Shown here: piece by piece, positions 11,787-29,818 of the stretch
Numbering within the stretch: the first letter of the stretch is position 1
Layout: each line of letters starts with the position of its first letter
Source: a bacterium HR35
Lineage (GTDB): Bacteria > Patescibacteriota > Minisyncoccia > UBA6257 > HR35
Assembly: GCA_002898235.1 (NCBI GenBank)
Contig: BEIL01000001.1
Coordinates: forward strand, 16,034 to 80,033
Length of the DNA stretch: 64,000 nt
Direction of reading: 5' to 3'
Position numbers and translations under genes: made by a program
Notes under the pieces: generated by a model
The model's database searches: none
The model's input: only the letters and a program-made list of their open reading frames with translations
What the model was told of the DNA's origin: nothing

Positions 11787-14700
11787 ATGAAAAGAAAATA
11801 CTTTGGATTAACATTTTTGGTCTTAATTCCTTTGTTTTTTTCCATTTCTCAATCATCTCCTGTTTCTTTAATTAGTTCTTTTCCTAGTTCTGTTAGAGTT
11901 TACGAAAAATTTGAAATTAAATTTAATGTTAATACTGCAGCAGAAAATTATTTTTTTTCTTATGATGAAAATCCTCCTGCTGGAGTAAAACCTAAAATAG
12001 GTGTTAGTGTAGATGGTATTTTTTATCATGTAGAATCTGGAAAAACATATACTCAACCAGCCTTTTGGACAGTTGAAGTTATTCGAAGTGGATCGGGTAG
12101 AAATATGATTTTTGAGGAAACAAATAAATCTTATTGGGTTTTAAGATTTTCTCCACAAAAAACAGGAACTTATAAAGTGTCTATTAGAGTAAAGGATAAA
12201 AATCAAGATGTGACCACTTACATTGGTCAATTTACAGCTTTAACGCCGATTAGAAAAGGATTTATTGGTGTAAGCAAATCAGATCCAAGATACTTTGAAT
12301 TTTCTAACGGAGAATTATACTTTCCTATTGGGCCAGCTTGGTATGATAATAAATCTAGTAATCCGAATGCAAGTTTTGGTTATTCCCAATACATTGGAAC
12401 AGGATTGAATTATGAAAGAATATGGTTAGCTGGCATTGGAGCTTACTCTACTAATTTTGCTCGTTGGATAAGTTCAGCTGAAAGAATGGGTAATGAAGGT
12501 TATATGACTTTATTTGCTTATGATAATGGAACTGGAGAAAAAGTCCCCACCTATGGAGAGCTTTCTTATCCTCTTTTTTATCCAGATGGTTTTAGGTTTT
12601 GGCTAACAACTTGGGGCAATGAAATGTTAGGACCAAGATTGAAAGCTGGTCAAAAATATCGAGTAGAAATTGTTTATAAAACTTCTAATATTTCTGGTCC
12701 AAGAGTTTCTGGTTATCCTTATGGTTTTGTTGTAAAAGCAGGAACTCCTGATATTATGTGGCGCCAACACACGATTAGTGAATTTGAATCTTTTATGAGA
12801 AATTCTCCTAATCAAATTCTCTTTCCTTACGATAATCAAAATCATACTTGGCGAACTGCTACCTATGAATTTACGGCTACTCAAGGCTGGCAAAATATTT
12901 ATCTTTATTTAGATAATGTTTCGAATGGTCAAGTCTATATTTATAAATTTTCAATTAAACCAGTTTTGAGCGATGGTAGTTTAGGCGGTGAAGTTATTAG
13001 AAATCCAATAGCCGACCAACATACTTATGTTGATCCTCGGGGAGCAGCTTTTATTGATTGGTTAGTAGAAGAAGCAGAAAAGGCAGGAGTCTATCTTCAA
13101 TTAGTTGTTCATGATAAAAATGATGCTATTCAAAATAGACTCAAGATGGATGGCACTTGGACAGATATTTTTAAAGGAGATGGATATTACCAACCTGAAA
13201 ATACTAAAGCTAGGTGGCTCTTAAGACAATGGTATAGATATTTAGCAGCTAGGTGGGGATATTCACCAAATATTTTTGCTTGGGAATTAAACAACGAAGG
13301 ACCACCCGATGAAGATCCGCCAGGAAGCGGAACATCCCCTCACTGGAGAACAGCTCAAGCTTTTGCTCAGTTTATGCATACTGTTGATTCTCACCCTCAT
13401 TTAGCTTCTACTTCATTCTGGTGTTGTTGGCGACCTCAATTTTGGGGTAATAATACTTATTTCCCAGATATTAATTATGCCGATGTTCATGAATATACTA
13501 ACAATCCTCAAGTAGCTCCTCAAAATTATACTTATGATGAAGTTTCCTTTATTTACTCTTTAGGAGTTAATACTGCTAAAGATAATGTTGGCAAGCCAGT
13601 TCTTATAGGGGAGCATGGAATTAGTGGAAGCAATTGGATGCCTGTTTCTGAACTTCAACAACCTAATTCTGGTGTTTATTATCACAATATGCTTTGGGCT
13701 CAACTTAATTCTGCTCAAATTTTTGCTCCGGATTATTGGTATTCTGACCATTTGAGATATATTAATCGAGAAGAAATAAGTAAACCATTTGCTAAATTCG
13801 TAAGTAACCTTGATGTAAATAAAGGAGGTTATGTTAATTTGCAAGCCTCTGTTTCTAATTCTAAACTTAGAGTTTTAGGGCAAAAAAATCTTTACCTTAA
13901 TAAAGCTTATGGTTGGATTCAAAATACTGATTATACCTGGTACAACGCTTATCGAAATTACTATACTTATCAATCAGGTCAAGTTAGGATTAAATTAAAT
14001 CCAAATTATGATTATCTAATTGAATGGTGGGATACTTACACTGGAGTTACTTCGACTCAAACTCAAAGAAGCGATTACCAAGGATATGTCACTTTAAATA
14101 TTAATAATCTTAAAACCGATGTTGCTTTCAAAATTTATCCTCTTTCAGGTTCTACTCCTTCTTATCCTCCACTTTCTGTTTCTTGTTCAGCTTCTCCTAA
14201 TCCAGCTAATATCAATCAAACAGTAACCTTTACTGCTTCAGTTTCTGGAGGTACAGGTTCTTATACTTATTCTTGGTCAGGAGCTTGTTCTGGTTCTTCT
14301 TCAACTTGTTCAACTTCCTTCTCTTCAGCTGGAACTTATACTGCTAACTTAACTGTTACTTCAGGTTCAGAAACAAAATCAACTTCTTGTTCAGTAAATG
14401 TTCAAGTTCCTCAACCAGCACCTCTACCAACTGTTGATCTTAAAGTCAATAACTCTGATGGTCCAATTTCGATTACAGTTCCAACTTCAATTACTCTTAG
14501 CTGGACTTCTCAAAATGCTTCCTCTTGTACTGCTTCAGGTTCTTGGTCTGGTTCAAAATCAACTTCAGGTTCTCAATCAATCTCTCTTTCTTCAGCTGGA
14601 ACTTACAATTATACTTTAACTTGCACTAATTCTTCTGGTTCTGCTTCTGATTCAGTAACCGTTAATGCTCAATCAGCATCAATCATAATTAATCAAACAA

Positions 14701-17700
14701 CAACCACTGTTACTAAAGCTTATACGATTTCTAATACTAATCGAGATGCAGAATCAATTGGAACCAGAATCTATACTCTTCCTTCGTCAGCTCCTTGGGG
14801 CCAAATGTATTTAGGTTATGATAGATATACTTCCGGTAAAGTTTACGATGGCGGTTGGATTTTTGAAACTGATATACCCAAAGGAGCTAAAATTGTTTCT
14901 TCAACTTTAACTTTAACAGCTAATTCAGACAACTACGGACCAATTAAACTCACAGGTTATTGGTATGGTTATGCTACTAGTAATCCTCCTGATTTTGTTA
15001 ATGGTTATTCTGGAAAAAGAATCTCCACCATTTATCCTCGAACATCTAATTATGTTTACCAATCGTTTTATGTAGTTAGTCAAGGACAAAAAATTATCTC
15101 CTCTAATTTAGCTAAAATTGTTCAAGAAATAGTAAATAGACCAGACTTTAAGGGAAAAATAGGATTAACTTTTAGAACTACAAATTCAAGCAACGTTTGG
15201 CAATCCTGGATAGATTATTCAGATGATCCAGCAAATTCAGCTATTCTCACAGTAGTTTATGAGGTTACTTCTACTCCTTCTTATCCTCCACTTTCTGTTT
15301 CTTGTTCAGCTTCTCCTAATCCAGCTAATATCAATCAAACAGTAACCTTTACTTCTTCAGTTTCTGGAGGTACAGGTTCTTATACTTATTCTTGGTCAGG
15401 AGCTTGTTCTGGTTCTTCTTCAACTTGTTCAACTTCCTTCTCTTCAGCTGGAACTTATACTGCTAACTTAACTGTTACTTCAGGTTCAGAAACAAAATCA
15501 ACTTCTTGTTCAGTAAATGTTCAAGTTCCTCAACCAGCACCTCTACCAACTGTTGATCTTAAAGTCAATAACTCTGATGGTCCAATTTCGATTACAGTTC
15601 CAACTTCAATTACTCTTAGCTGGACTTCTCAAAATGCTTCCTCTTGTACTGCTTCAGGTTCTTGGTCTGGTTCAAAATCAACTTCAGGTTCTCAATCAAT
15701 CTCTCTTTCTTCAGCTGGAACTTACACCTATACTTTAACTTGCACTAATTCTTCTGGTTCTGCTTCTGATTCAGTGACTGTTAATGCTCAATCAGCACCT
15801 ACACCAACAACGACAACTTTTGAGGAATGGACTCAATTTGCTCATGATCCTATGAGAACCTCCTATACTCCTCAGTTTGTCTCACCTCCTTGGAAATGGA
15901 AATGGAGTTGGAATGGTCCAGATGCTAATGGTAATCCTGTACCAGGTAAATTTAGATTGCCAAGAAACTCTCAACCAATTACTGGAGGGGGAAGAGTTTA
16001 TATAGCTGCTGGTTCAAGAGGAGTTTATGCTCTTAATAATTCAAATGGTTCTGTTATTTGGAATGTAAATCCAGGTGGAGCTCGAATTGATTCAACTCCA
16101 GCTTATGACCCTCAAACAGATGCTCTTTTTGTTCTTTCTTCTAATGGAACACTTTATAAACTTAATGCTAGTAATGGCTCTATTTTAGCTTCTTATTCTT
16201 CAGGACAAACAATTCCTAAAGGAGAAACAAATTTTCAAGACCCTAATCAAACCCTTCCTTTGCCTCCTCTTCTTTACGGAAATAGAGTTTACTTTGTAGC
16301 TGGTACTAAAATGTTTGCTCTTGATAAAAATAATCTTTCGGTTGTTTGGTCCTATGATTCCGGTGGTTCTCCATTTGTTACTCCAGTTGCCTATTCTCCT
16401 TCCTATAATAGATTAGTAGCTGTTACTCGAGATTTATATGTCAATGCTGTTGATGCTAATAGTGGTTCGCTTGTTTGGAGAACTAAACCGACAATAAGAA
16501 ATTATGGTGATCCAGGAGAGAATAATCAAACTTTAGCTCAAGCTGAATATGGCTGGCCTGTTATTGCTGAAAGAACCGGTTTAGTACTAATCAAATATAG
16601 ATTAGATTGGAATGCTCTTTTTAATCCTTTTAGTCCCTGGCCAACTGATAATGCTACCATAAGAGCTGGTTTAGAACAAAATCCTCAATATCAAGCTTTG
16701 TTTGCTTTAAGACTTTCTGATGGTTCAAAAGCTTTTACTGCTAATATTGGTCACGGAGGTTGGGGAGATGGCGGTTATCTACCAATGGGAAATATTCCAG
16801 CAGTTAAAAGCTTTCCCGATGGCTCTGAAGTTGCTTATCTTGTTATCAGAGGTCATCAAGCAATGGATGGTCGTTGGGATTCACTTTACGGAGAATTAGT
16901 CTTAGACAATAGCAATTCCAACTTTCAACCAGGTTATGTTAGATGGATTCAATATGGAAATTATGGTTGGTATAATCCTCCATTAAGCAATATTATGGTA
17001 CCGCCTACTGACGAACAACCTTATGTCATTATAGCTGGTAATTATTTATTCGGAGGTCACTGGATATTAGGTCAAGCTTTAGAAATAAAAGACCGCTCTT
17101 CTAATCTTGGCACTTATACTAACCCAATTAAATCAGCACCTCTTCCACATATTGTTGAATCAACTAATTTAGTACCTTACAATAGTTCTCATTATTCAGA
17201 TAGTATGATTGCTGCTACTGCTGGAGGAACTGAGTGGCGAGCTGTTCCTTATGGTTTTTACATTTATAACGATTCAGTTGGAAAAATTTATGATCAATAT
17301 TGGTCTGGTTATGCTACTTGGATAGTTAGCAATAATACTATTTACTTTCTTTCTACTGATGGAGCTTTAGTAGCTTTGGAGCAAGGTAATCCCACCCAAT
17401 TAACCGAAACAAGAAAAATCGTAATAAACGAAAATCTAATAAAAAACATTTCTTCTCTTGCTTCCCGTTTATTAGCACAAATTTCTCCTTCTAAACCTAT
17501 AGAAATTCAACCAGAAGATATATCTAAAAATTTTACTGAACTTTTAAATAAAGAAGTACTTTTAAGAGGAAAAATAATAAAAGTGGTTGCTAACCATCAT
17601 GGAACATTTATAAAACTCCACCAAACTCCGTATTCACCAACAATAATCATCAAACCTGATGTTTATTCTGAATTTTCAAAACCACCTTTTGAAATTTTCA

Positions 17701-17798
17701 AACCAGGAATGAATATTAAAGTAAAAGGAATATTGACTTATTATCGCGGAGATCCAGCAATTTATATAACCAATCCATCTCAAATTCTTTCCGAATAA
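11787..17798 (+). CDS. giant secreted multidomain protein: N-terminal beta-sandwich, GH clan-A-like catalytic domain, two PKD/Ig-like module pairs, PQQ-like beta-propeller, C-terminal OB-like domain
   Basis: Signal peptide. Clan GH-A-like acid/base and nucleophile motifs (FAWELNNEGPP and VLIGEHG). Two copies of a PKD-like pair (SCSASPNPANINQTVTFT..GGTGSYTYSW). Repeated propeller blades (RVYIAAGSRGVYALNNSNGSVIW; NRVYFVAGTKMFALDKNNLSVVW; LYVNAVDANSGSLVW). 2003 aa. Confidence 0.6.
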   Translation: MKRKYFGLTFLVLIPLFFSISQSSPVSLISSFPSSVRVYEKFEIKFNVNTAAENYFFSYDENPPAGVKPKIGVSVDGIFYHVESGKTYTQPAFWTVEVIRSGSGRNMIFEETNKSYWVLRFSPQKTGTYKVSIRVKDKNQDVTTYIGQFTALTPIRKGFIGVSKSDPRYFEFSNGELYFPIGPAWYDNKSSNPNASFGYSQYIGTGLNYERIWLAGIGAYSTNFARWISSAERMGNEGYMTLFAYDNGTGEKVPTYGELSYPLFYPDGFRFWLTTWGNEMLGPRLKAGQKYRVEIVYKTSNISGPRVSGYPYGFVVKAGTPDIMWRQHTISEFESFMRNSPNQILFPYDNQNHTWRTATYEFTATQGWQNIYLYLDNVSNGQVYIYKFSIKPVLSDGSLGGEVIRNPIADQHTYVDPRGAAFIDWLVEEAEKAGVYLQLVVHDKNDAIQNRLKMDGTWTDIFKGDGYYQPENTKARWLLRQWYRYLAARWGYSPNIFAWELNNEGPPDEDPPGSGTSPHWRTAQAFAQFMHTVDSHPHLASTSFWCCWRPQFWGNNTYFPDINYADVHEYTNNPQVAPQNYTYDEVSFIYSLGVNTAKDNVGKPVLIGEHGISGSNWMPVSELQQPNSGVYYHNMLWAQLNSAQIFAPDYWYSDHLRYINREEISKPFAKFVSNLDVNKGGYVNLQASVSNSKLRVLGQKNLYLNKAYGWIQNTDYTWYNAYRNYYTYQSGQVRIKLNPNYDYLIEWWDTYTGVTSTQTQRSDYQGYVTLNINNLKTDVAFKIYPLSGSTPSYPPLSVSCSASPNPANINQTVTFTASVSGGTGSYTYSWSGACSGSSSTCSTSFSSAGTYTANLTVTSGSETKSTSCSVNVQVPQPAPLPTVDLKVNNSDGPISITVPTSITLSWTSQNASSCTASGSWSGSKSTSGSQSISLSSAGTYNYTLTCTNSSGSASDSVTVNAQSASIIINQTTTTVTKAYTISNTNRDAESIGTRIYTLPSSAPWGQMYLGYDRYTSGKVYDGGWIFETDIPKGAKIVSSTLTLTANSDNYGPIKLTGYWYGYATSNPPDFVNGYSGKRISTIYPRTSNYVYQSFYVVSQGQKIISSNLAKIVQEIVNRPDFKGKIGLTFRTTNSSNVWQSWIDYSDDPANSAILTVVYEVTSTPSYPPLSVSCSASPNPANINQTVTFTSSVSGGTGSYTYSWSGACSGSSSTCSTSFSSAGTYTANLTVTSGSETKSTSCSVNVQVPQPAPLPTVDLKVNNSDGPISITVPTSITLSWTSQNASSCTASGSWSGSKSTSGSQSISLSSAGTYTYTLTCTNSSGSASDSVTVNAQSAPTPTTTTFEEWTQFAHDPMRTSYTPQFVSPPWKWKWSWNGPDANGNPVPGKFRLPRNSQPITGGGRVYIAAGSRGVYALNNSNGSVIWNVNPGGARIDSTPAYDPQTDALFVLSSNGTLYKLNASNGSILASYSSGQTIPKGETNFQDPNQTLPLPPLLYGNRVYFVAGTKMFALDKNNLSVVWSYDSGGSPFVTPVAYSPSYNRLVAVTRDLYVNAVDANSGSLVWRTKPTIRNYGDPGENNQTLAQAEYGWPVIAERTGLVLIKYRLDWNALFNPFSPWPTDNATIRAGLEQNPQYQALFALRLSDGSKAFTANIGHGGWGDGGYLPMGNIPAVKSFPDGSEVAYLVIRGHQAMDGRWDSLYGELVLDNSNSNFQPGYVRWIQYGNYGWYNPPLSNIMVPPTDEQPYVIIAGNYLFGGHWILGQALEIKDRSSNLGTYTNPIKSAPLPHIVESTNLVPYNSSHYSDSMIAATAGGTEWRAVPYGFYIYNDSVGKIYDQYWSGYATWIVSNNTIYFLSTDGALVALEQGNPTQLTETRKIVINENLIKNISSLASRLLAQISPSKPIEIQPEDISKNFTELLNKEVLLRGKIIKVVANHHGTFIKLHQTPYSPTIIIKPDVYSEFSKPPFEIFKPGMNIKVKGILTYYRGDPAIYITNPSQILSE
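14155..14676 (+). repeat. copy 1 of a roughly 520 bp direct repeat (PKD/Ig module pair) inside the 2003 aa gene
   Basis: Near-identical to 15272-15793, with only about 5 substitutions. The copies are 1117 nt apart. The six-frame track shows the same minor ORF twice (14398-14619 and 15517-15738), differing by 1 aa. Confidence 0.85.
15272..15793 (+). repeat. copy 2 of the roughly 520 bp direct repeat
   Basis: See copy 1. Confidence 0.85.
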
Positions 17799-17880: not shown

Positions 17881-20322
17881 ATGCCTCAAAATTATAAGGA
17901 AAAATTTTATGGGATATTAGAGGATATGTTTGTGGGAGATGCTGAGATAGAAGGTGGCGGAGGTTTTATTAATCTTTTAAAAATTAAGAAAAATTACTAT
18001 CAAAAAGCTTTTAAACCAAAACTTGAAGAAAAAGTAAATGAGGTTTTAAACAAATATCCAAATTTTGAAACAGAGCTTTTCGAAAAATTTTATACTTTCT
18101 TCTCTCGTTATTTTTCAGAATCAGGCTCAATTTATTTTGTTAATACTCCAGTATATCATCAAATTTATGAAAAAATTTACACCGACAAAGAAGATGTTAT
18201 TTTGTTCTGGAAGACAAGAGATCTTTATTACATTAAAACAGATAGAATCTTCAAAACTTTAGAAATTGAAATAGATAATTATAAATTTTATTTTGATGTC
18301 TCTAAACTTGAATACAAAAAAGCAAACGAAAAAAGAGAAGTAATTTATAAACTTGATGAAGAAAAAACAACAAAGGATAAAATTTATTTTTATGTTTATT
18401 ATTCAGAAAAAGGAAAAACAACAAAAATTGATGAGATATTAAAAGCACTCAAAAAGAAAAACATAAAAATTAATGAAGATATTTTAGAAAAAGCATTTAG
18501 AAGATTTGAACAACAATCAGAAGTAGATTATTTTATTCATAAAAACGCAAAAACCTTCTTAACAGAACAATTAAAACTTTACATTTATAACTATCTCTTT
18601 AAAGAAACTCAAGAATGGACAAGTGAAAGAATTGACCAAATAAATAAATTCAAAGAAACCGCTGAACTTATAATTGACTTTGTTTCAAAATTTGAAGATG
18701 AATTAGTTAAAATCTGGAATAAACCGAGATTTGTTTTAAATTCAAATTATGTAATAACTCTTGATAGAATAGTTAAACAAAATAAACAAAAAGGAATTGA
18801 AATTATAGAAAAAATAATTAATCATAAAAACTTTAATGAACAAGTGAAAGAATGGAAAGAACTTGGAATTATTGATGAAAATTTTAATAAAAATGAAATT
18901 ATTAAAAATGACTTAACAGGAGAAAATTTAAATCCAAAATATCAATTCTTACCAATTGATACAAAATACTTTAAAGATTTAGAAATTGAAATTTTAGAAC
19001 TTTTTGATGATTTAGATAATTCTCTTGATGGCTGGTTAATAAAAAGTGAAAATTATCAAGCATTAAATACAATCCTTCCAAAATTTAAAGAAAAAGTCCA
19101 AACAATTTATATCGATCCACCATTTAACAAAGAGCAAGATGCTGATTATCTATATAATGTCAAATACAAAGATTCTACCTGGATAACATTACTTGAAAAC
19201 AGATTAACATTAGCAAAAGATATATTAAAAGATACAGGAAGCATTTTTGTAAGATGTGATTATAACGGCAATATGTATGTAAGATTGTTGATGAATGAAA
19301 TTTTTGGAGAAGAGAATTTTAGAAATGAGATAGTGATAGCAAAAACTAAAGAGTTTTTTAAAACTATGACGCATATAAACAAGTTTTCTGAAGAATCTGA
19401 AAGCCTATTTTTCTTTTCAAAAACTTCTAATTTGCTATTTAATCTTGTTTACAGACAAAAAGAAGTACCTTCTAAATATGAACCTTTTCTGCCTGTAGGA
19501 GATAAAACATATCAAGATTCTAGAATTATTGATGGAAAAGAATATTATTCTCCTAAAGGAAGAAAATGGGGAGTGAAACAGGAAGATATTGATGAGTTAG
19601 TTAAAAGTGGGAGATTAATTTTTGAAAATGGTAAATGGTATTTAATTACATATGAAGAACCTCTAAAAAATGTTTGGACTGACAAACAAGGATATTCAAG
19701 ATATTGGAAATTTCCTACCGAAAACTCCGAAATCCTCCTCAAGCGTGTAATTGAATCCACTTCTAACGAAGGCGATTTAGTTATGGATTTCTTTTTAGGA
19801 AGTGGTACAACAACAGCAGTAGCACATAAACTTAAAAGAAAATGGATTGGTGTTGAGATGGGAGAGCATTTTTATAGTGTAGCTTTGCCAAGAATGAAAA
19901 AAGTTTTGGCTTATGATAAATCAGGAATTTCAAAAGAAAAAGATGTTAAAGAAAAATACAATGAAAATAATGCTGGAGGATTTTTCAAGTATTATGAACT
20001 TGAACAATATGAAGAAATTTTAAGAAAAGCAAAATATCAAGATATAAATGAGCCTAAAACATTATTTGATAAAGATTTTAATTACATTTTTATGCCTGAT
20101 GAAAAAATGTTATCAGCATTAGAAATTGATTACCAGAATAATAAAGTAAAAATTGATTTAAATAAAATTTATCCAAACATTGACATTGCTGAAACATTAT
20201 CAAACTTAAAAGGGAAATGGATAAAGAAAATTGCGAAAGATTATGTTGAATTTGAAGATGGAGAGAAGATAGATTTAAATAATTTAGATTTAAGGTCAAT
20301 TAAAAAATTAATATGGTGGTGA
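17881..20322 (+). CDS. mod: Type III restriction-modification methyltransferase (Mod), beta-class amino-methyltransferase with a roughly 400 aa N-terminal extension
   Basis: Motif IV IYIDPPFN precedes motif I FFLGSGTTTAVAHKL, the beta-class order. A DEAH-helicase Res gene lies downstream. Confidence 0.7.
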   Translation: MPQNYKEKFYGILEDMFVGDAEIEGGGGFINLLKIKKNYYQKAFKPKLEEKVNEVLNKYPNFETELFEKFYTFFSRYFSESGSIYFVNTPVYHQIYEKIYTDKEDVILFWKTRDLYYIKTDRIFKTLEIEIDNYKFYFDVSKLEYKKANEKREVIYKLDEEKTTKDKIYFYVYYSEKGKTTKIDEILKALKKKNIKINEDILEKAFRRFEQQSEVDYFIHKNAKTFLTEQLKLYIYNYLFKETQEWTSERIDQINKFKETAELIIDFVSKFEDELVKIWNKPRFVLNSNYVITLDRIVKQNKQKGIEIIEKIINHKNFNEQVKEWKELGIIDENFNKNEIIKNDLTGENLNPKYQFLPIDTKYFKDLEIEILELFDDLDNSLDGWLIKSENYQALNTILPKFKEKVQTIYIDPPFNKEQDADYLYNVKYKDSTWITLLENRLTLAKDILKDTGSIFVRCDYNGNMYVRLLMNEIFGEENFRNEIVIAKTKEFFKTMTHINKFSEESESLFFFSKTSNLLFNLVYRQKEVPSKYEPFLPVGDKTYQDSRIIDGKEYYSPKGRKWGVKQEDIDELVKSGRLIFENGKWYLITYEEPLKNVWTDKQGYSRYWKFPTENSEILLKRVIESTSNEGDLVMDFFLGSGTTTAVAHKLKRKWIGVEMGEHFYSVALPRMKKVLAYDKSGISKEKDVKEKYNENNAGGFFKYYELEQYEEILRKAKYQDINEPKTLFDKDFNYIFMPDEKMLSALEIDYQNNKVKIDLNKIYPNIDIAETLSNLKGKWIKKIAKDYVEFEDGEKIDLNNLDLRSIKKLIWW

Positions 20323-20326
20323 GAGG

Positions 20327-20791
20327 ATGAGCGAGGTTTTAAAAATAATTTTAAATAGTATCTTGCCATCTGTTTTGCTTTTTATATTATATAAATTTTT
20401 TGAAGAATTTATTTTAAAACCGTATCTAGAATATAAAAAAATACTAGCTAAAGTTGATCATTATTTAAAGTTTTATAATAATATAATTTTTAATATTAAT
20501 CCTCCTAACAGAATTAAAGCATATGAACCATTGCCTGAAGATTGGATAAAAGCAAAAGAAACATTTAGAAATTTATCGTGTGAGTTAGAATCTCATTATA
20601 AATCTATGATATGTAAATTATTTTTACCTAAAAAGGAGAATATATATACTTCAATAAAAGACTTGATGATATTATCAAATATAATCGGCATAGCCAATGA
20701 TTACAAAGGAAATTACCAAGAAAAAGCAATTCGATTAGAAGAGGAAATTAGGCGTTGTTTAAAAATACCTCAAATAAATAATGAAAAATAA
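20327..20791 (+). CDS. hypothetical small membrane-anchored protein within the R-M locus
   Basis: 154 aa with an N-terminal TM helix and no recognisable motifs. Confidence 0.25.
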   Translation: MSEVLKIILNSILPSVLLFILYKFFEEFILKPYLEYKKILAKVDHYLKFYNNIIFNINPPNRIKAYEPLPEDWIKAKETFRNLSCELESHYKSMICKLFLPKKENIYTSIKDLMILSNIIGIANDYKGNYQEKAIRLEEEIRRCLKIPQINNEK

Positions 20792-21554
20792 AAATTTATC
20801 ACATAGACAAAAACAAGAATTGATAAGAAAGAAAGCCTTGGAAATATTAGAAGAGCATAAAGAAGGAATAAAATATATGGATTTGGTTAGAAAAGTTAAG
20901 GAAAAATGTCCAGAAGTTAATCTAAATATAGTTAGATGGGAAGTATGGTATTTACCGAGAATATTCGAAGATGTAATAAAACCCGAAAGAGGACTTTTTA
21001 TTTTAAAAAAATATTATAAAGAAATTTCAAAAGGAGAAATAGATTTAAAAGAAAGGAGGATTTATAAAATAGATGAATCTGTTTTTTATCAATATTTTGC
21101 TGATTATTTAATGAATGAATTAGAAGAATGTACAAAAGCTATACCATTGGGAGGAAGTAGATTTCAAGATAAATGGGGAACACCAGATGTATTAGGAATA
21201 TATAAAATTTCTGAAACTGAGCCAATAAGACCTTTACCAGAAATAATAAGTGCCGAGATAAAAATTGATACTAATCAATTAATAACAGCTTTTGGCCAAG
21301 CTTGTGCTTATAAATTATTTAGCCATAAAGTTTATTTAGTTATACCTAAAAATGCTTCACCATTGGATTTGGGGAGATTAGAATCTTTATGTTTAAGATT
21401 TGGCATCGGTTTAATTACTTTTGATAGAAATAATTCTGAAAATCCAGATTTTAGAATAATAACAAGAGCAGTTAAAAGTGAACCAGATTATTTTTATGTT
21501 AATGAATATTTAAAAAGATTAGATAAAAAAGATTTAAAAGAGTTATTTGGATGA
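20781..21554 (+). CDS. putative winged-helix plus PD-(D/E)xK nuclease-like protein
   Basis: N-terminal wH-like region. The C-terminal region has a GTPDVLG....SAEIK arrangement compatible with a PD-(D/E)xK catalytic motif. Confidence 0.3.
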   Translation: MKNKNLSHRQKQELIRKKALEILEEHKEGIKYMDLVRKVKEKCPEVNLNIVRWEVWYLPRIFEDVIKPERGLFILKKYYKEISKGEIDLKERRIYKIDESVFYQYFADYLMNELEECTKAIPLGGSRFQDKWGTPDVLGIYKISETEPIRPLPEIISAEIKIDTNQLITAFGQACAYKLFSHKVYLVIPKNASPLDLGRLESLCLRFGIGLITFDRNNSENPDFRIITRAVKSEPDYFYVNEYLKRLDKKDLKELFG

Positions 21555-21558
21555 AATT

Positions 21559-21662
21559 ATGAATATAAAACTTATTTTAAAAAACATAGCAGAAAATATT
21601 GATTTTAATAATCTTCCATCTAATTGGCAGGGTTTTGATTTTGAGAGATTTTCTAATAATTA
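21559..21662 (+). pseudogene. duplicated 5' fragment of the res gene (34-codon relic ORF)
   Basis: Encodes MNIKLILKNIAENIDFNNLPSNWQGFDFERF, versus the Res N-terminus MNLRLILKNIAENIDFNNLPSNWQSFDFEGF. About 58 consecutive identical nt and 90 nt of overall similarity to 23177-23266. Confidence 0.7.
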
Positions 21663-21702
21663 AAAAATAAAAAGATTCAAGCCCTTGTGTTAAAATTAAA
21701 AT

Positions 21703-22695
21703 ATGATTAAGAATTTAAAGATTGAAAATTTTAAATCTATAAAAAGTGTTGAAATTGATTGTAAAAAAATTAATGTTTTTATAGGAGAACCTAATACTGG
21801 TAAGTCAAATATTTTAGAAGCTTTGGGGTTGATTTCTTTTGTACAATATTTTGGTAAATATATTGGGGGCAATAGTTCTGATGTGTTGAAAAAATTTGTA
21901 AGGTTTAAGTATATACAGGATTTATTTTTTAATAAAGATGTTTCGAAGGAAGTTATAGTTTCATTTCCGGAAGAAGTTTTTAAAATTAATCAAGTTTCAA
22001 TTTCATCTTTTGCTTTAACATTTAATAATCAAAATTTAGTTAGCTTTGATAATGTTGGAAACTTAAACTCACCTTTTCAACAATTTCAATCTAAATATGA
22101 TATTAAATTCTTCAGATATTTTTATAGAATAAATTTTCCTTCAAAGCTTTCAGGCGGACTTTTACCTCCGGATGGAGAAAATTTAGTTGAAGCTATTAGA
22201 ACAAATCCGGAACTTATGGATCTTATAGGGGAACTGTTAAGAGATTTTGGATATGAACTTTTATTAAGAGAGACAGAAGGAGAAATTGAAATAGTAAGAA
22301 AATTTAGAGCAACTTTATTAAGTTATCCATATAATTCAATTTCTGATACACTCCAAAGATTAATTTTTTATTTAACTGCTATAAAAACTAATAAAAATTC
22401 TGTTTTAGTTTTTGAAGAACCAGAAGCACATTCTTTTCCTTATTATGTAAGTAGTCTTTCAGAAATAATAGCCAACGACACAAATAACAATCAATATTTT
22501 ATTAGCACCCATAATCCATATTTTTTGATTTCTTTATTAGAAAAAACAGCTTATGAGGATATAAATGTATTTATCACAAAATTAGAGGAATATGAAACTA
22601 AATTGTTTAAAGTATCTGAAAAGGGTATAAAAGAAATGTTATCATTAGACAAAGATTTATTTTTAAATTTAGATGAATTTATAAATAAAAAATGA
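21703..22695 (+). CDS. AbiLi/RloA-like P-loop ATPase (AAA_21/OLD-family ABC-type ATPase)
   Basis: Walker A IGEPNTGKSN, Walker B/D-loop VLVFEEPEAHSFP, and H-loop ISTHNPYF. Confidence 0.6.
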   Translation: MIKNLKIENFKSIKSVEIDCKKINVFIGEPNTGKSNILEALGLISFVQYFGKYIGGNSSDVLKKFVRFKYIQDLFFNKDVSKEVIVSFPEEVFKINQVSISSFALTFNNQNLVSFDNVGNLNSPFQQFQSKYDIKFFRYFYRINFPSKLSGGLLPPDGENLVEAIRTNPELMDLIGELLRDFGYELLLRETEGEIEIVRKFRATLLSYPYNSISDTLQRLIFYLTAIKTNKNSVLVFEEPEAHSFPYYVSSLSEIIANDTNNNQYFISTHNPYFLISLLEKTAYEDINVFITKLEEYETKLFKVSEKGIKEMLSLDKDLFLNLDEFINKK

Positions 22696-23162
22696 TAACC
22701 TACGGCGAATGTAATACTGAATGTTTATTTTCTAAAGTTATTTTGGGACAAAAAGCAAAACATTTACAAGGTAAAGATAGAGTTGTTAAAAGGATAATGG
22801 ATGAGAATGGTGTATTGGGGATAATTGATTTAGATCCATCTAAACCTACAGGAAAATACTTAGAACAAATAAAGCGAATAGAACCTGTGTTTAATGAGAT
22901 TGATATAATTTTAAGAAAATTTAAATCTTCTTATTTGATTGAAATTTCTCCTTATTTTGAAGAATGGCTTGTAAATTTGTCAAGGAAAAGTAATGTGAGT
23001 CCAAAAGATTTTAATTTACCCGAAAATCCTAAAAAACTACACGAATTAATAAGCATTAAAGGAAGATTTGATAAATTAGAAGAAAGAATAGGAGGTCTTT
23101 TGGAAGCTATAATAAGCAAAAATAAAGAACACTTTAATAAATTAAAAAATAATATTAAATAA
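22692..23162 (+). CDS. AbiLii/RloB-like small protein (Toprim-like)
   Basis: N-terminus YGECNTECLF resembles the RloB cEGekTEpnYF motif, and GIIDLDP supplies a DxD. Translationally coupled to the ATPase (ATGA overlap). Confidence 0.4.
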   Translation: MITYGECNTECLFSKVILGQKAKHLQGKDRVVKRIMDENGVLGIIDLDPSKPTGKYLEQIKRIEPVFNEIDIILRKFKSSYLIEISPYFEEWLVNLSRKSNVSPKDFNLPENPKKLHELISIKGRFDKLEERIGGLLEAIISKNKEHFNKLKNNIK

Positions 23163-23176
23163 ATAAAATTTAATAA

Positions 23177-26044
23177 ATGAATTTAAGATTAATTTTAAAA
23201 AACATAGCAGAAAATATTGATTTTAATAATCTTCCATCTAATTGGCAGAGTTTTGATTTTGAAGGTTTTTCAAGGAGCAAAAAACTTTATGATTTTCAAA
23301 TTGAGGCTTTAGAAAACTTTTTAAAAGTTTTGTGGTTTTATTATGAGAAAGATTTTGATTATAGAGAAGGAGAAGGTTTAAATATTAATGACAAAAGGAA
23401 AGAAAAGTTATTTAAAGAATATTTAGATTATGATTTAAATCCAGAAGAGGTTTCTCTTAAATACAAAAAAGAAAAGAAAAATAAATTTATTTTTGAGTAT
23501 TATTTTTTAGAAAATGAAGAGATAAGTTTTAAACATTTTGTAAATAGAGCTGGATTTTGGATGGCAACAGGAAGCGGAAAAACATTAGTGATTATTAAAA
23601 TAATTGAATTTTTGAAAGAATTAATGAAGAGAAAGGAAATTCCTAATTTTGATATTTTATTTTTAACTCATAGAGAGGATTTAATAACACAATTTAAAAA
23701 ACATTTAGAGGAATTTAATGAGGGAAGGGAAAATAAAATTCAAGTTTATGATTTAAAAGATTATGAAAAACAAAAGCGGGGATTACTGAATGAAAATTTT
23801 ATTTTTTATTACCGAGCAGATTTATTTTCAGATGAAGAAAAAGAAAAAATTGTAGATTTTAAAAATTATTTTAATGATGGAAAGTGGTTTGTTATTTTAG
23901 ATGAAGCTCATAAAGGAGATACTGAAGAATCTGAAAGGCAACATATATTTTCTATTCTTTCGAAAAATGGATTTCTTTTTAATTTTTCAGCAACTTTTAG
24001 CGATGCTATTGATTTAATTACAACTTGCTTTGAATATAACCTATCAACATTTATTGAAAATGGTTATGGAAAGAAAATTTATATTTCTGATTATGAAGCA
24101 AAAGCTTTTAAAGAAGAATTTAAGCAAAAAGACAAACAAAAAATTATTTTAAAAGGGTTAATTCTTTTAACTTATATTAAAAAGGAGTTAAATAAAGTTA
24201 GAGAAAAAATCTCGAATGCTTATCATAATCCTTTACTTCTTGTTTTAGTAAATTCAGTAAATAAAGAAGATGCTGACTTGAAATTATTTTTTGAAGAAAT
24301 CAGAAATATAGCTGAAGGGAATTTTGATAAAAGTTTAATTGAAGAAGCAAAGGAAGAAATAAAAAAAGAATTTCAAGAAAAAGAAAATTTTGATATTCCA
24401 GGAGATGATAAATTAAAAATAGATTTTAATTTAGTCTCAAAAGTAACTTATAATGATATTTTGAAAAATGTTTTTAATTCTGATAGGCCGGGAAAGATAG
24501 AAATTTCTTATAGTCCTAAAGAAAAAGGAGAAGTGGCTTTTAAATTAAAAATCTCTGATTCACATTTTGCTTTAATGAAAACAGGAGATATGCCAGGTTG
24601 GCTTAAAGATTCTTTAAGTCAGTTTGAGGTTAATCATCTTTATGAAAATGAAAAATTTTTTGAAGAAATAAATAGTGATAGTTCTAAAATAAATATTTTA
24701 TTGGGATCAAGAGTTTTTTATGAAGGATGGGATTCAAATAGGCCAAATATTATTATGTTTATAAATATTGGAACACAAAAGGAAGCTAAAAAATTTGTTT
24801 TACAATCTGTAGGGAGAGGGATAAGAATTGAACCAATAAAAAATGAAAGAAAGAGGATTTTATATATTAAAGAAAAAATAGGAAAAGTTTTTGATGAGAT
24901 TAAAGATTATGTTTCTTCAATAGAAAGCTTGTTTATCTTTGGAACTAATAAAAGTGCCATTGAGACTATAATTACCGAAGTTAATGCAATTAAAGAAAAA
25001 ACATTTAAGGGTACAAAAATTTCTCTTTTCAAAAATATTGAAGCAATTAAAGAAAATGTCTTGTTAGTACCAAAATATAAAGAAGGAGAAAAAAGGATTT
25101 TTGAAGAAGAAGTTAGATATGGAATTTCTGAAGACGATTTTAAAAAGTTAAAGGAATTTAATGAATTTGTTAAAGATGATAGGGTTTTACTAGTAAATCT
25201 TGATACTGAACCTAAATTAGTTAAATATTTTAGAGAATCTTTACTTTATCAAAAACAATTAGTTAGTGGAAACTATTATAAAAAATCTGATTCAGAGAGA
25301 AACAATGTCGAGGTGATTTTAAGCGACCTTTTTAAGTTTTGGGGAACTAAGTTTCAAGATTTTGAAAAATTTAAGGAATTAGAGGATGAAATAAAGCATT
25401 TCGAAAATATTGTTATTGAAGAAGCTAAATTTAATGATTTTGAATCAATAAAAGAAGCAGTTATGGGTACAAAAAGGAGTTTGCCTTTTGAAAATTTGAA
25501 ATTAGAATATATAACTAATCATTATTATTTACCTCTTATTTTAAGTAAAGATGAAAAAATTGACTATATTAAGCACATAATTAAGACTAAAAGCGAAGTT
25601 GAATTCATAGAAAGGTTAGAAAATTATATAAATTTAAATAATAATAAATTTAAAAATTTTGATTGGTGGATGTTTAGCAAAATTGATGAAAGTTTAGATG
25701 AAGTTTATATTCCTTATTATGATGTTGAAAAAGGAGGTATAAGAGGGTTTAAACCAGATTTTATATTTTGGTTAAAGAAAGATAATAACTATTTTATTGT
25801 TTTTATTGATCCAAAATCAACAAAATTTACTGATTATGAAAATAAAATTTCTTGGTACAAAAGGTTATTTGAAGAGAATAACAAGCCGAGATTATTTAAA
25901 TATAAAAATTTAAATTGTTTTGTTTATTGCTTTTTATATACAGAAGATAAAGATAAAGTTATAAATTCTTCTTACAAAGATTACTGGTTTGAAAACATAG
26001 ATAAAGTGCTTGAAAAATTTGTCAATAAAAATAGGGGGCATTGA
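23177..26044 (+). CDS. res: Type III restriction enzyme Res subunit (SF2 DEAH helicase plus C-terminal nuclease)
   Basis: Walker A ATGSGKT, DEAH box ILDEAHKG, helicase motif VI-like QSVGRGIR, and a C-terminal PD..D/ExK-like region KPDFIFW...FIDPKS. Confidence 0.75.
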   Translation: MNLRLILKNIAENIDFNNLPSNWQSFDFEGFSRSKKLYDFQIEALENFLKVLWFYYEKDFDYREGEGLNINDKRKEKLFKEYLDYDLNPEEVSLKYKKEKKNKFIFEYYFLENEEISFKHFVNRAGFWMATGSGKTLVIIKIIEFLKELMKRKEIPNFDILFLTHREDLITQFKKHLEEFNEGRENKIQVYDLKDYEKQKRGLLNENFIFYYRADLFSDEEKEKIVDFKNYFNDGKWFVILDEAHKGDTEESERQHIFSILSKNGFLFNFSATFSDAIDLITTCFEYNLSTFIENGYGKKIYISDYEAKAFKEEFKQKDKQKIILKGLILLTYIKKELNKVREKISNAYHNPLLLVLVNSVNKEDADLKLFFEEIRNIAEGNFDKSLIEEAKEEIKKEFQEKENFDIPGDDKLKIDFNLVSKVTYNDILKNVFNSDRPGKIEISYSPKEKGEVAFKLKISDSHFALMKTGDMPGWLKDSLSQFEVNHLYENEKFFEEINSDSSKINILLGSRVFYEGWDSNRPNIIMFINIGTQKEAKKFVLQSVGRGIRIEPIKNERKRILYIKEKIGKVFDEIKDYVSSIESLFIFGTNKSAIETIITEVNAIKEKTFKGTKISLFKNIEAIKENVLLVPKYKEGEKRIFEEEVRYGISEDDFKKLKEFNEFVKDDRVLLVNLDTEPKLVKYFRESLLYQKQLVSGNYYKKSDSERNNVEVILSDLFKFWGTKFQDFEKFKELEDEIKHFENIVIEEAKFNDFESIKEAVMGTKRSLPFENLKLEYITNHYYLPLILSKDEKIDYIKHIIKTKSEVEFIERLENYINLNNNKFKNFDWWMFSKIDESLDEVYIPYYDVEKGGIRGFKPDFIFWLKKDNNYFIVFIDPKSTKFTDYENKISWYKRLFEENNKPRLFKYKNLNCFVYCFLYTEDKDKVINSSYKDYWFENIDKVLEKFVNKNRGH

Positions 26045-26108: not shown

Positions 26109-26633
26109 ATGAAAATTTATTTTGTTACACATTCGACAACGGTTGATAATGAGAAAAATATTGTTTCTGGATGGAATGATGTTGAGTTATCTGAAACTGG
26201 TAAAAAACAAGCAAAAGAAATTGCGAAAAGATTTGAAAATTTTAATTTGGATTTGATTTGCTGTTCTGATTTAAAAAGAGCAGTGGAGACAGTGAAAATT
26301 GCTTTCAATGATAAATACCCTGTTATTATTGATAAAAGATTAAGAGAAATAAATTATGGTGATTTTAGTGGTAAAGAAAAAACTTTCATTGATTCGATAA
26401 AACTCAATTATATAGAAAAACCATTTCCTAATGGAGAAAGTTTTAAAGACGCAATTGAAAGGGTGATTAATTTTTATAAAGAATTAAAAGAGAAATATAA
26501 TGATAAAGTTATTTTGATTGTTGGTCATCGAGCAACTCATTATGCTTTTGAAGTATTAATAAACAAGAAATTAATTGAAGAATGTTTAAAAATACCGTTT
26601 CAATGGCAGCCCTATTGGGACTATGAATTTTAA
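26109..26633 (+). CDS. histidine phosphatase (phosphoglycerate mutase-like) family protein
   Basis: N-terminus IYFVTHSTT...GW.D..LSETGKKQA and a later LIVGHRATH. The canonical Arg of RHG is replaced by Thr. Confidence 0.55.
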   Translation: MKIYFVTHSTTVDNEKNIVSGWNDVELSETGKKQAKEIAKRFENFNLDLICCSDLKRAVETVKIAFNDKYPVIIDKRLREINYGDFSGKEKTFIDSIKLNYIEKPFPNGESFKDAIERVINFYKELKEKYNDKVILIVGHRATHYAFEVLINKKLIEECLKIPFQWQPYWDYEF

Positions 26634-26641
26634 TAAAAGTT

Positions 26642-27178
26642 ATGTTAGATAAGTTTAAAGTGATTAAACGAAAAGTAAAGTATATTCGATTGGAAATTAA
26701 AGATTTTGGGGTGAGGGTGGTTGTGCCGGAGGGTTTTAATGGAGATGTTGAGAAAGTTATTGAGAGGCATAGAAGATGGTTGGAGAAAAAGCTTGCTTTG
26801 TTGAATGAGATAAAAAGCTTGAGTGAGAGATTGGAAATTTATAATCATAAAAATTTAGAAGAAATTGTTAGTGAATATATAAATGAAATTAGTCAGATTT
26901 TGAAGGTAAAACCAAAAGGAATTTATTTTAGGAATATGAAGGTAAGATGGGGAAGTTGTACTTTTGATGGAAGGTTGATTTTTAATAAAAAGTTAAAGTT
27001 TTTGCCAAAAGAATTAATAAGATATGTTGCTGTTCATGAAATGTGTCATTTGTTAATTAAAAATCATCGAAAAGAATTTTGGTTATTAGTTAAAAAATTA
27101 TGTCCAGAGTTTAAAAATTATCAAAAATTGTTGGCTTCCTATAGAATTAAAATATATAGCGATTATTCACTTAACTGA
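26642..27178 (+). CDS. YgjP-like metal-dependent hydrolase (DUF45/M48-like)
   Basis: RWGSCT motif and HEMCHLLIKNHRKEFW (HExxH...NH..FW). Confidence 0.65.
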   Translation: MLDKFKVIKRKVKYIRLEIKDFGVRVVVPEGFNGDVEKVIERHRRWLEKKLALLNEIKSLSERLEIYNHKNLEEIVSEYINEISQILKVKPKGIYFRNMKVRWGSCTFDGRLIFNKKLKFLPKELIRYVAVHEMCHLLIKNHRKEFWLLVKKLCPEFKNYQKLLASYRIKIYSDYSLN

Positions 27179-29746: not shown

Positions 29747-29818
29747 TGGGCGCAGGAGGATTTGAACCTCCGACCTCCTCGATGTGAACGAGGCGTTCTG
29801 CCACTGAACTATGCGCCC
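29747..29818 (-). tRNA. tRNA-Val (anticodon CAC)
   Basis: Reverse complement folds as a cloverleaf: acceptor GGGCGCA/TGCGCCC, D-stem GTTC/GAAC, anticodon stem CCTCG/CGAGG with loop TTCACAT, T-arm GGAGGTTCAAATCCTCC. Confidence 0.8.

What the first reader, a model, noticed from the sequence alone, without database searches (positions are those of the whole stretch)
21559..23266. AbiL/RloAB-like ATPase + Toprim cassette inserted between mod and res of a Type III R-M system, flanked by a duplicated res 5' end
The roughly 1.6 kb segment carrying a P-loop ATPase (21703-22695) and an overlapping small Toprim-like gene (22692-23162) is bracketed by two copies of the first roughly 90 nt of res. The upstream copy (21559-21648) has a 58 nt perfect core, diverged flanks, and survives as a 34-codon relic ORF. 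The downstream copy (23177-23266) is the live start of res. This is the footprint of cassette insertion by duplication or recombination at the res start. It echoes the R-linked ORFs (rloA/rloB) of Campylobacter type I loci and AbiLi/AbiLii, but here in a Type III context in a reduced genome. The pairing may function as a second-line abortive-infection module physically and transcriptionally nested in an R-M operon.
Basis: partly seen in the sequence, partly recalled or inferred. Interest (0 to 1): 0.8.

Follow-up and report, generated by a model that had tools for sequence, protein, structure and literature searches.

The report
ATPase–Toprim cassette inside Type III restriction operon
A two-gene module (a small ABC-type ATPase plus a miniature Toprim-fold nuclease, of the kind known from PARIS, AbiL and RloAB phage-defence systems) sits just upstream of the restriction gene of a Type III restriction-modification operon, flanked by a duplicated copy of that gene's first ~100 bases, and a related genome shows the same site without the module.

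Summary
Window 21559-21666 repeats the res start (23177-23284) at 87% identity. The perfect core is 57 nt, not 58. Simulated sequence gives exact repeats of at most 20 nt.

The insertion reading is supported. A Parcubacteria MAG (L003) has mod-orf154-orf257-res and aligns continuously through the relic to window 21656, then resumes at the live res start. L007 is a second empty site.

The cassette lies between a 257-aa R-M-linked gene and res, not directly after mod. Three other cassette-bearing lineages lack the long repeat.

The pair is adjacent in 8 of 8 unrelated contexts examined and in an archaeal virus, so it is an autonomous mobile module.

The space between mod and res in this lineage carries varied defence-like cargo, including DUF4238 and Schlafen/AlbA_2 proteins.

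Verdict: a new variant of the known ABC-ATPase + Toprim kind, in a new (Type III) setting. Its function is inferred, not tested.

The parts
17881..20322 (+). Type III mod (813 aa)
   Evidence: Pfam N6_N4_Mtase 1.2e-41. PADLOC MTase_III PDLC03638 matches full length, 1015 bits.
20327..20791 (+). orf154, variable 'slot 1' cargo with a hydrophobic N-terminus
   Evidence: No family hit. An ortholog is present in L003. The same position holds a 378-aa, 336-aa (Schlafen AlbA_2), 319-aa or DUF4238 gene in related loci.
20781..21554 (+). orf257, an R-M-linked gene of unknown function, the left neighbour of the insertion site
   Evidence: Identical to HRbin35_00035 of 'bacterium HR35'. 3359 homologues at E<=1e-5, none with a confident Pfam domain. 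Only weak winged-helix hits. Found between mod and res in L001, L003, L007, L008, L016 and L026/27, and after an AlwI-type R-M in L028/29.
21559..21663 (+). res 5' relic, an open 34-codon ORF; homology to the res start spans about 21551-21666
   Evidence: 87% identity over 108 nt to 23177-23284. The L003 empty-site alignment runs continuously from orf257 to window 21656.
21574..21630 (+). 57-nt perfect core of the repeat, upstream copy
21667..21687 (+). 21-nt spacer between the end of the relic and the conserved leader; no match in the related loci compared (origin unknown)
   Evidence: Homology to L001, L008 and L016 resumes at 21688-21690.
21688..21702 (+). Conserved leader upstream of the ATPase (GTTAAAATTAAAAT)
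   Evidence: Shared with L001.
21703..22695 (+). ABC-type ATPase, 330 aa (AAA_15/AAA_21)
   Evidence: Pfam AAA_15 4.2e-18 and AAA_21 7.1e-12. PADLOC AbiLi 8.1e-17 over residues 1-300. G28/G33-K34-S35 (Walker A), E239-P240 (Walker B region) and T269-H270 (H-loop) are invariant in 8 family members.
22692..23162 (+). Mini-Toprim protein, 156 aa, overlapping the ATPase stop by 4 nt (ATGA)
23177..26044 (+). Type III res (955 aa), the live copy
   Evidence: Pfam ResIII 7.3e-19. 81% aa identity to res of L003-L005 and 76% to L006.
23192..23248 (+). 57-nt perfect core of the repeat, downstream copy inside res

Best explanation
The segment 21657-23176 is a mobile two-gene module that entered the 5' end of res in a Type III R-M operon. 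It encodes a ~330-aa ABC-type (AAA_15/AAA_21) ATPase, translationally coupled to a ~155-aa Toprim-fold protein.

Entry was by recombination that duplicated the first ~100 nt of res. The left copy was cut off from the rest of the gene and survives as a 34-codon relic. The right copy is the working res start. The two copies have since exchanged sequence, or the crossover lay in the core, which explains a clean 57-nt core between diverged flanks. That core is long enough to support homologous deletion of the cassette, which would restore the orf257-res junction seen in L003 and L007.

Function is inferred. By analogy with PARIS, AbiL, RloAB, Mad3/4 and OLD, the ATPase would be the sensor or regulator and the Toprim protein a metal-dependent nuclease effector held in check until infection. 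Co-transcription with mod and res would make it a second layer of defence, possibly triggered when the R-M enzyme is inhibited.

Shown: the repeat, the empty sites, the ATPase family, the Toprim fold and motif, and the strict pairing of the two genes. Inferred: the recombination mechanism, nuclease activity, any defence phenotype, and any link to anti-restriction.
For: Repeat and core.

Empty site: L003 blastn is continuous from window 19711-21656 to L003 8150-10098, then window 23177 onward matches L003 10001 onward. The same pattern holds for L007.

Locus series: 5 loci have mod followed directly by res, 3 have orf257 (a fragment in L010) followed by res, and 5 have orf257-ATPase-small-res.

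ATPase.

Pairing: an AAA_15/AAA_21 ATPase of 325-353 aa lies immediately upstream in 8 of 8 unrelated contexts. The same holds in Geoglobus ahangari pleomorphic virus 1, gp15/gp16; gp16 matches the family profile at E 2.5e-60.

Operon: all genes are on the same strand, with gaps of 39 nt or less or overlaps, and no + strand terminator between mod and res.

Literature: ABC ATPase + Toprim pairs are established defence modules, and RloAB lies inside Type I R-M loci (PMC11464382, PMC10802264, PMC13064643, PMC12065111).
Against: - The window's small protein has no curated HMM hit (Pfam, PADLOC, NCBIfam). No family member hits Pfam RloB, DUF4276, DUF4435 or Toprim_Old.
- Foldseek found nothing significant in PDB or BFVD.
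- None of the 8 stand-alone contexts is next to an R-M system, so functional coupling to restriction is not a property of the family.
- The other cassette-bearing Type III loci lack a long relic.
- Gain versus loss cannot be polarised.
- There is no experimental evidence for defence or nuclease activity.
Confidence: 0.65

Rival explanations
1. Loss rather than gain. The ATPase-Toprim pair is ancestral to this Type III lineage. The cassette-free loci (L003, L007, L010) arose by deletion between res-start repeats or by allelic replacement. The window's repeat would then be a maintained excision substrate rather than a fresh insertion scar.
For: Both locus clades contain cassette-plus and cassette-minus members that are very close: L007 and L008 share 93% Res identity, L010 and L016 98%. 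The four Type III-linked ATPases group together in an NJ tree. Short res-start repeats flank the cassette in L008/9 (12 nt) and L001 (10 nt). The 57-nt core shows the two copies still interact.
Against: The ATPase grouping rests on a short branch. The small-protein tree does not group the four. The window ATPase is as close to stand-alone ATPases and the archaeal-virus ATPase (46-48%) as to clade B (48-49%). An initial insertion with duplication is still needed to create the repeats. The short vestiges are not statistically significant.
Confidence: 0.3
2. The pair is an integral accessory of the restriction enzyme, as Mad3/Mad4 are in MADS, and modulates or extends Type III restriction rather than acting on its own.
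For: It is co-oriented with mod and res and apparently co-transcribed. The ATPase N-terminus hits NCBIfam MAD3 at 7.2e-10, and 5 of 95 small-protein relatives hit MAD4 weakly. mad3 and mad4 deletions reduce MADS defence (10.1101/2023.03.30.534895).
Against: The pair occurs alone among housekeeping genes in 8 of 8 other contexts and in a virus. Close relatives of the same R-M system lack it (L003, L007, L004-6). MAD3 and MAD4 scores are far below the curated cut-offs (38.6 against 420 bits).
Confidence: 0.12
3. The pair is a selfish toxin-antitoxin-like addiction module that lodged in the operon, with no defence role.
For: It is a small, translationally coupled two-gene unit scattered singly across unrelated genomes. 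PARIS itself behaves as a type II TA system (PMC10802264).
Against: All characterised AAA_15/21 + Toprim pairs are antiphage systems. Here the pair sits in a slot that elsewhere holds known defence genes, for example DUF4238. TA behaviour and defence do not exclude each other.
Confidence: 0.12
4. The duplication is an artefact of metagenome assembly, from co-assembling strains with and without the cassette across a shared repeat.
For: The source is a MAG ('bacterium HR35'). A near-identical variant exists in another sample (L002, 95% identity).
Against: The relic continues about 30 nt past the shared core as res-like sequence, then into unique DNA and the cassette leader. At least one real molecule must carry that junction. 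The flanks of the two copies differ, which a collapsed-repeat artefact would not produce.
Confidence: 0.03

Closest known systems
AbiL (AbiLi/AbiLii) of Lactococcus
   Same: Two adjacent genes: an ABC-type ATPase followed by a Toprim/OLD-like protein. The window ATPase's best end-to-end PADLOC match is AbiLi (E 8.1e-17, residues 1-300 on model positions 1-318 of 340).
   Different: The window's small protein does not hit the AbiLii model, and only 2 of 95 relatives do so weakly. It is about 155 aa, a bare Toprim plus a short helical tail. AbiL is plasmid-borne, not inside an R-M operon.
RloA/RloB of Campylobacter Type I R-M loci
   Same: An ATPase + Toprim pair physically embedded in a restriction-modification locus (Miller 2005, as cited in PMC10802264 and PMC13064643).
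   Different: The host system is Type III, not Type I. Pfam RloB (PF13707) is not hit by any of 95 family members. Here the insertion has a visible repeat scar and an empty site.
PARIS (AriA/AriB), class 4 OLD-like
   Different: AriA is about 55 kDa with coiled-coil insertions and AriB about 35 kDa with DUF4435. Here the proteins are about 38 and 18 kDa, there is no DUF4435 hit, and the AriA match covers only the N-terminal ~46 residues.
Mad3/Mad4 of the methylation-associated defence system (MADS)
   Same: An AAA_15/21 ATPase plus a small Toprim (DUF4276-type) protein acting as a modular accessory inside a methylation-based defence operon. MAD4 is the only curated family hit by several small-protein relatives.
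   Different: Scores are far below the curated cut-offs. Pfam DUF4276 is not hit. MADS is an eight-gene system, and none of its mandatory components (Mad6-8) were looked for or seen here.
Class 1 and 2 OLD nucleases (Thermus scotoductus OLD 6P74; Burkholderia OLD C-terminal region 6NK8)
   Different: In OLD proteins the ATPase and Toprim are fused in one polypeptide. Here they are separate genes and both much smaller.

Membership tests
Type III restriction-modification system | Mod subunit: N6/N4 DNA methyltransferase of the Type III family | tested here: met
   Pfam N6_N4_Mtase 1.2e-41. PADLOC MTase_III PDLC03638 matches end to end, 1015 bits.
Type III restriction-modification system | Res subunit: SF2 helicase-type ATPase (ResIII) with a C-terminal endonuclease, encoded downstream of mod | tested here: inconclusive
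   The ResIII domain is met (7.3e-19). The C-terminal PD-(D/E)xK motif (PDFIFW...FIDPK) was seen only by eye. PADLOC gave no REase_III hit.
ABC ATPase + Toprim (OLD-like) two-gene defence modules | AAA_15/AAA_21 ABC-type ATPase with intact Walker A, Walker B and H-loop | tested here: met
   AAA_15 66.6 bits (cut-off 32.1) and AAA_21 46.4 bits (cut-off 27). G28/G33-K34-S35, E239-P240 and T269-H270 are invariant in 8 sequences.
ABC ATPase + Toprim (OLD-like) two-gene defence modules | Partner with a Toprim fold: conserved Glu after strand 1 and DxD after strand 3 | tested here: met
ABC ATPase + Toprim (OLD-like) two-gene defence modules | The two genes are conserved neighbours | tested here: met
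   Adjacent in 8 of 8 unrelated contexts, 5 Type III loci and 1 archaeal virus.
ABC ATPase + Toprim (OLD-like) two-gene defence modules | Antiphage phenotype and nuclease activity | not testable with these tools
   Needs cloning, phage challenge and biochemistry.
AbiL | Second gene matches AbiLii | tested here: not met
   The window protein has no PADLOC hit. 2 of 95 relatives hit AbiLii, best E 3.1e-4.
RloAB | Second gene belongs to Pfam RloB (PF13707) | tested here: not met
   0 of 95 family members at E<=0.01.
PARIS | AriB-type effector with DUF4435 (PF14491); AriA with coiled-coil trigger-binding insertions | tested here: not met
MADS Mad3/Mad4 | Scores above the NCBIfam equivalog cut-offs for MAD3 and MAD4 | tested here: not met
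   MAD3 scores 38.6 bits against a cut-off of 420. MAD4 is hit by only 5 of 95 relatives, at E>=0.012.
Insertion with flanking duplication (insertion scar) | Direct repeats bracket the insert, and a related locus has one uninterrupted copy (empty site) | tested here: met
   Repeat. Empty sites in L003 and L007 with continuous alignment across the junction.

The most novel reading that the evidence does not exclude
The mod-res interval of this Type III lineage is an integrase-free cargo slot. Defence cassettes are swapped in and out by homologous recombination, anchored on conserved operon sequence (the res start and orf257).

The window's ATPase-Toprim cassette, bracketed by res-start repeats with a 57-nt perfect core, would be a reversibly excisable unit that integrates and excises in the Campbell manner. 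Its mini-Toprim/ATPase pair would be an unnamed, widespread defence system (513 clusters at 50% identity, bacteria, archaea and an archaeal virus). When nested in the operon it would guard the Type III enzyme against anti-restriction.
Probability: 0.2. Interest if true: 0.75.

Novelty: new variant of a known kind. Interest (0 to 1): 0.55.

Why it matters
ABC-ATPase + Toprim pairs (OLD, Gabija, PARIS, AbiL, RloAB, Mad3/4) are a major but poorly understood class of antiphage modules. Authors of the PARIS structures asked whether R-M-embedded versions cooperate with restriction.

This locus adds three things:
- A miniature, unannotated Toprim partner family that is broadly distributed and strictly paired with a ~330-aa ATPase. 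It is a small, tractable system for testing how the ATPase controls the nuclease.
- The first case seen here of such a pair inside a Type III operon, with natural 'with' and 'without' alleles of the same R-M system for comparison.
- A readable recombination scar and an exact empty site, showing how defence genes are layered into an existing operon without a dedicated recombinase. Related loci carry other cargo in the same interval.

It is not a new principle. The concept (RloAB in Type I loci, PrrC, PARIS sensing anti-restriction) is already established.

Tried and rejected
- AF2 on the 3-sequence alignment gave an unusable model (pLDDT 52). It was replaced by the 95-sequence run.
- Foldseek against PDB and BFVD found nothing at E<=0.001. 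The afdb50 library was unavailable.
- A profile of the small-protein family against PDB sequences gave nothing.
- Pfam, PADLOC and NCBIfam scans of 95 family members gave only weak MAD4 and AbiLii hits. I therefore rejected filing the protein under RloB, DUF4276 or DUF4435.
- I looked for eroded res relics upstream of the ATPase in L001, L008 and L016. Local alignments were not better than shuffles (P 0.21, 0.14, 0.44). Only the 6-12-nt res-start matches remain, and I treat them as suggestive.
- I tried to polarise gain versus loss with identity matrices and NJ trees. The result was inconclusive.
- The promoter scan is uninformative in this AT-rich DNA: 70 sites found against 59.6 expected.
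- The plasmid search found only a truncated ATPase with no partner.
- No tRNA lies within 3.7 kb of the locus; the nearest is at 29747, past res. None of the Pfam-scanned genes in or beside the locus is an integrase or transposase, so a classical integrative element is unlikely.
- I considered a transposon-style target-site duplication and rejected it. About 100 nt is far too long, and the repeat is the coding start of the neighbouring gene.


Full report
**1. The observation**

All genes from 17881 to 26044 lie on the + strand with very short gaps or overlaps:
- mod, 17881-20322
- orf154, 20327-20791
- orf257, 20781-21554
- a 34-codon ORF, 21559-21663
- a 330-aa gene, 21703-22695
- a 156-aa gene, 22692-23162, overlapping the previous stop in ATGA
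- res, 23177-26044

The repeat finder reports 21559-21666 against 23177-23284: 108 nt, 87% identity, spacing 1618 nt. It is much the largest repeat in 19-27 kb, and the alignment is shown.

It occurs exactly twice in the window. Markov-simulated sequence of the same composition gives exact repeats of at most 20 nt.

The 14 mismatches lie only in the flanks. A 57-nt clean run has P about 0.0008 if mismatches were uniform. So either the two copies have exchanged sequence or they are mosaics.

One omission: two further genes separate mod from the relic.

**2. What the genes are**

Mod is a Type III methyltransferase: Pfam N6_N4_Mtase 1.2e-41, and PADLOC MTase_III end to end at 1015 bits. Res carries the ResIII helicase domain.

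The 330-aa protein passes the Pfam thresholds for AAA_15 and AAA_21. In PADLOC its N-terminus matches many OLD-type ATPases (AriA, GajA, HEC-01A). The best end-to-end match is AbiLi, E 8.1e-17, residues 1-300 on model positions 1-318 of 340. In an alignment of eight family members, G28/G33-K34-S35 (Walker A), E239-P240 in the Walker B region, and T269-H270 (H-loop) are invariant.

The 156-aa protein hits nothing in Pfam, PADLOC or NCBIfam. The word-indexed search found only two relatives. The exhaustive profile search found 513 cluster representatives at E<=0.001, and the 150 best listed are almost all 120-200 aa. In a 95-sequence alignment, D46 and E90 are invariant. E6, C7, H24, D48, P49, P87, W92, L109, P110, L116 and H117 are at least 90% conserved.

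With that alignment AlphaFold2 gives pLDDT 94.4 and pTM 0.87. The order of elements is b1(2-5), a1, b2, a2, b3(41-46), then a b-hairpin and a helical tail. E6 follows b1 and D46-x-D48 follows b3. That is the Toprim signature as restated in PMC12065111.

None of the 95 members hits Pfam RloB, DUF4276, DUF4435 or Toprim_Old. A few hit MAD4 or AbiLii weakly. So the protein works like those families but was not shown to belong to any of them.

**3. The pair is an autonomous module**

In eight unrelated genomic contexts, an AAA_15/AAA_21 ATPase of 325-353 aa lies immediately upstream of a family member. The two often overlap by 1-4 nt, and the neighbours are ordinary housekeeping genes. The pair is also gp15/gp16 of Geoglobus ahangari pleomorphic virus 1; gp16 matches the family profile at E 2.5e-60. 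None of these contexts is an R-M locus, so the link to restriction is specific to the lineage studied here.

**4. Comparative anatomy of the locus**

Fourteen loci encoding close Res relatives were recovered, plus L001 and L002 through the small protein. tblastn, blastn and ORF maps give a series:

| Arrangement | Loci |
|---|---|
| mod followed directly by res (11-24 nt) | L004, L005, L006, L011, L013 |
| mod-orf155-orf257-res | L003 (Parcubacteria MAG KatS3mg094) |
| mod-orf336-orf269-res | L007 |
| mod-orf319-(47-aa orf257 fragment)-res | L010 |
| mod-DUF4238-res | L015 |
| mod-several small ORFs-res | L014 |
| ...orf257-ATPase-small-res | window, L001, L008/L009, L016 |

L002 is too short to place.

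L003 is the exact empty site. Its alignment to the window is continuous from 19711 through orf154, orf257 and the relic to 21656 (L003 8150-10098). It then resumes at window 23177 = L003 10001. L007 behaves the same way.

The other cassette-bearing loci do not have a long relic. After the orf257 stop they keep only:
- AAATTATGAA in L001
- ATGAAATTAATT in L008/9, identical to the first 12 nt of res in L007
- ATGAAA in L016

The cassette leader follows. These vestiges are consistent with eroded relics but are not individually significant.

**5. History**

Res, orf257, ATPase and small-protein identities define two clades:
- clade A: window, L001, L003, L004-6
- clade B: L007, L008, L010, L011, L015, L016

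Each clade contains close pairs with and without the cassette: L007 and L008 share 93% Res identity, L010 and L016 98%. An NJ tree groups the four Type III-linked ATPases, but on a short branch. The small-protein tree does not group them. The window ATPase is about as close to stand-alone and viral ATPases (46-48%) as to clade B (48-49%).

I therefore cannot decide between one old insertion followed by repeated loss and two or more insertions at the same point.

Within the repeat:
- The relic's first 15 nt are closest to the res start of L003 (1 mismatch). The live copy's are identical to L002.
- The relic's 3' flank is closest to L002 and L001.
- The live copy's 3' flank shares GTTTTTC with L003.

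This reciprocal mosaic is what a single crossover inside the core would leave. Such a crossover could come from Campbell-type integration of a circle carrying the cassette plus a res-start segment, or from later exchange between the two copies. It rests on only a handful of sites. Homology-facilitated illegitimate recombination of linear donor DNA is an alternative route to the same structure.

No tRNA lies within 3.7 kb of the locus, and none of the Pfam-scanned genes in or beside it is an integrase or transposase.

**6. Mechanism (inferred)**

The literature shows that AAA_15/21 ATPase + Toprim combinations are antiphage systems:
- OLD, Gabija, retron-associated OLD and PARIS, with AbiL and Mad3/4 added in PMC11464382.
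- In PARIS the ATPase sequesters the Toprim toxin and releases it when it binds the anti-restriction protein Ocr.
- RloAB lies inside Type I R-M loci, which has been read as support for synergy between such systems and restriction (PMC10802264).

By analogy, I propose that the window's ATPase holds the mini-Toprim nuclease inactive until an infection cue. I also propose that co-expression with mod and res provides a second layer of defence. The operon reading rests on same-strand genes, gaps of 39 nt or less, ATGA coupling, and no + strand terminator. Nothing here tests activity, trigger or phenotype.

**7. Verdict**

- the Toprim partner is not a member of RloB, DUF4276 or DUF4435;
- the cassette lies between orf257 and res, in a multi-cargo interval;
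- the long duplication is peculiar to this genome;
- the direction of events is open.

It is a new variant of a known kind: a miniature, unannotated ATPase-Toprim pair, in a Type III setting, with a clear scar and empty site. It is of moderate interest for defence-system biology.

Noticed in passing
window 20781-21554 (orf257); L026 7001-7744; L028 7001-7741: orf257 is identical to HRbin35_00035 of 'bacterium HR35'. Its family is very large (3359 hits at E<=1e-5), well conserved (55-65% identity across CPR bacteria, Actinobacteria and Aenigmatarchaeota), and has no Pfam model. It sits between mod and res in several Type III loci and directly after an AlwI-type Type II R-M in L028/L029. By eye it has an N-terminal winged helix (weak Rok/MCM4 WHD hits) and a PD...E.K-like motif. 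It may be an unrecognised R-M accessory gene.
   Followed up: partly
window 20327-20791; L001 138-1274; L007 4167-5177; L010 8323-9282; L015 2849-3880; L014 2469-5201: The position right after mod holds different genes in related loci:
- a 154-aa protein with a hydrophobic N-terminus (window, L003)
- a 378-aa protein with an RHEIVH (HEPN-like) motif seen by eye (L001)
- a Schlafen AlbA_2 protein (L007/8/9, Pfam 3.1e-12)
- a 319-aa unknown (L010)
- a DUF4238 protein, a known candidate defence gene (L015, Pfam 3.4e-44, PADLOC DUF4238-Pers)
- several small ORFs (L014)
The mod-res interval behaves as a cargo hot spot.
   Followed up: partly
L010 9400-9543: Only the last ~47 codons of orf257 survive upstream of res in L010, preceded by an unrelated 319-aa gene. 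This is a second kind of recombination scar in the same interval.
   Followed up: no
window 19333-19710: The central part of mod does not align at the DNA level with L003, although the flanks are 86-90% identical. This is typical of a swap of the target-recognition domain, which would change specificity.
   Followed up: no
window 23247-23279: The live res differs from the otherwise 95%-identical L002 by a tight cluster of substitutions (EGFSRSK against ERFSKDK). The relic keeps the L002/L001-like version there.
   Followed up: partly
window 26109-27178: A YgjP-like metallopeptidase gene (26642-27178, Pfam 1.1e-38) follows res here, in L003 and in L007. It may belong to the R-M locus. In the window, a histidine-phosphatase gene (26109-26633) is interposed that L003 lacks.
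   Followed up: partly
L031 5364-6805 (BK065157.1, Geoglobus ahangari pleomorphic virus 1 gp15-gp16): An archaeal pleolipovirus carries the same ATPase + mini-Toprim pair (ATPase 43% identical over 99% of the query; gp16 matches the family profile at E 2.5e-60). It is flanked by two winged-helix regulator genes.
   Followed up: partly
L003, L004, L005, L006: Res proteins 76-81% identical to the window's occur in MAGs assigned to Parcubacteria and to candidate division WOR-3. This suggests horizontal transfer of this Type III system between distant lineages, or mis-binning.
   Followed up: no
window 11787-17798: The 2003-aa upstream protein (PKD, PQQ_2/BamB-like and DUF5060 domains) contains two nearly identical internal segments of about 150 aa or more (TPSYPPLSVSCSASPNPANINQTVTFT...). 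Its G+C content is higher (35-40%) than that of the R-M locus (21-27%).
   Followed up: no
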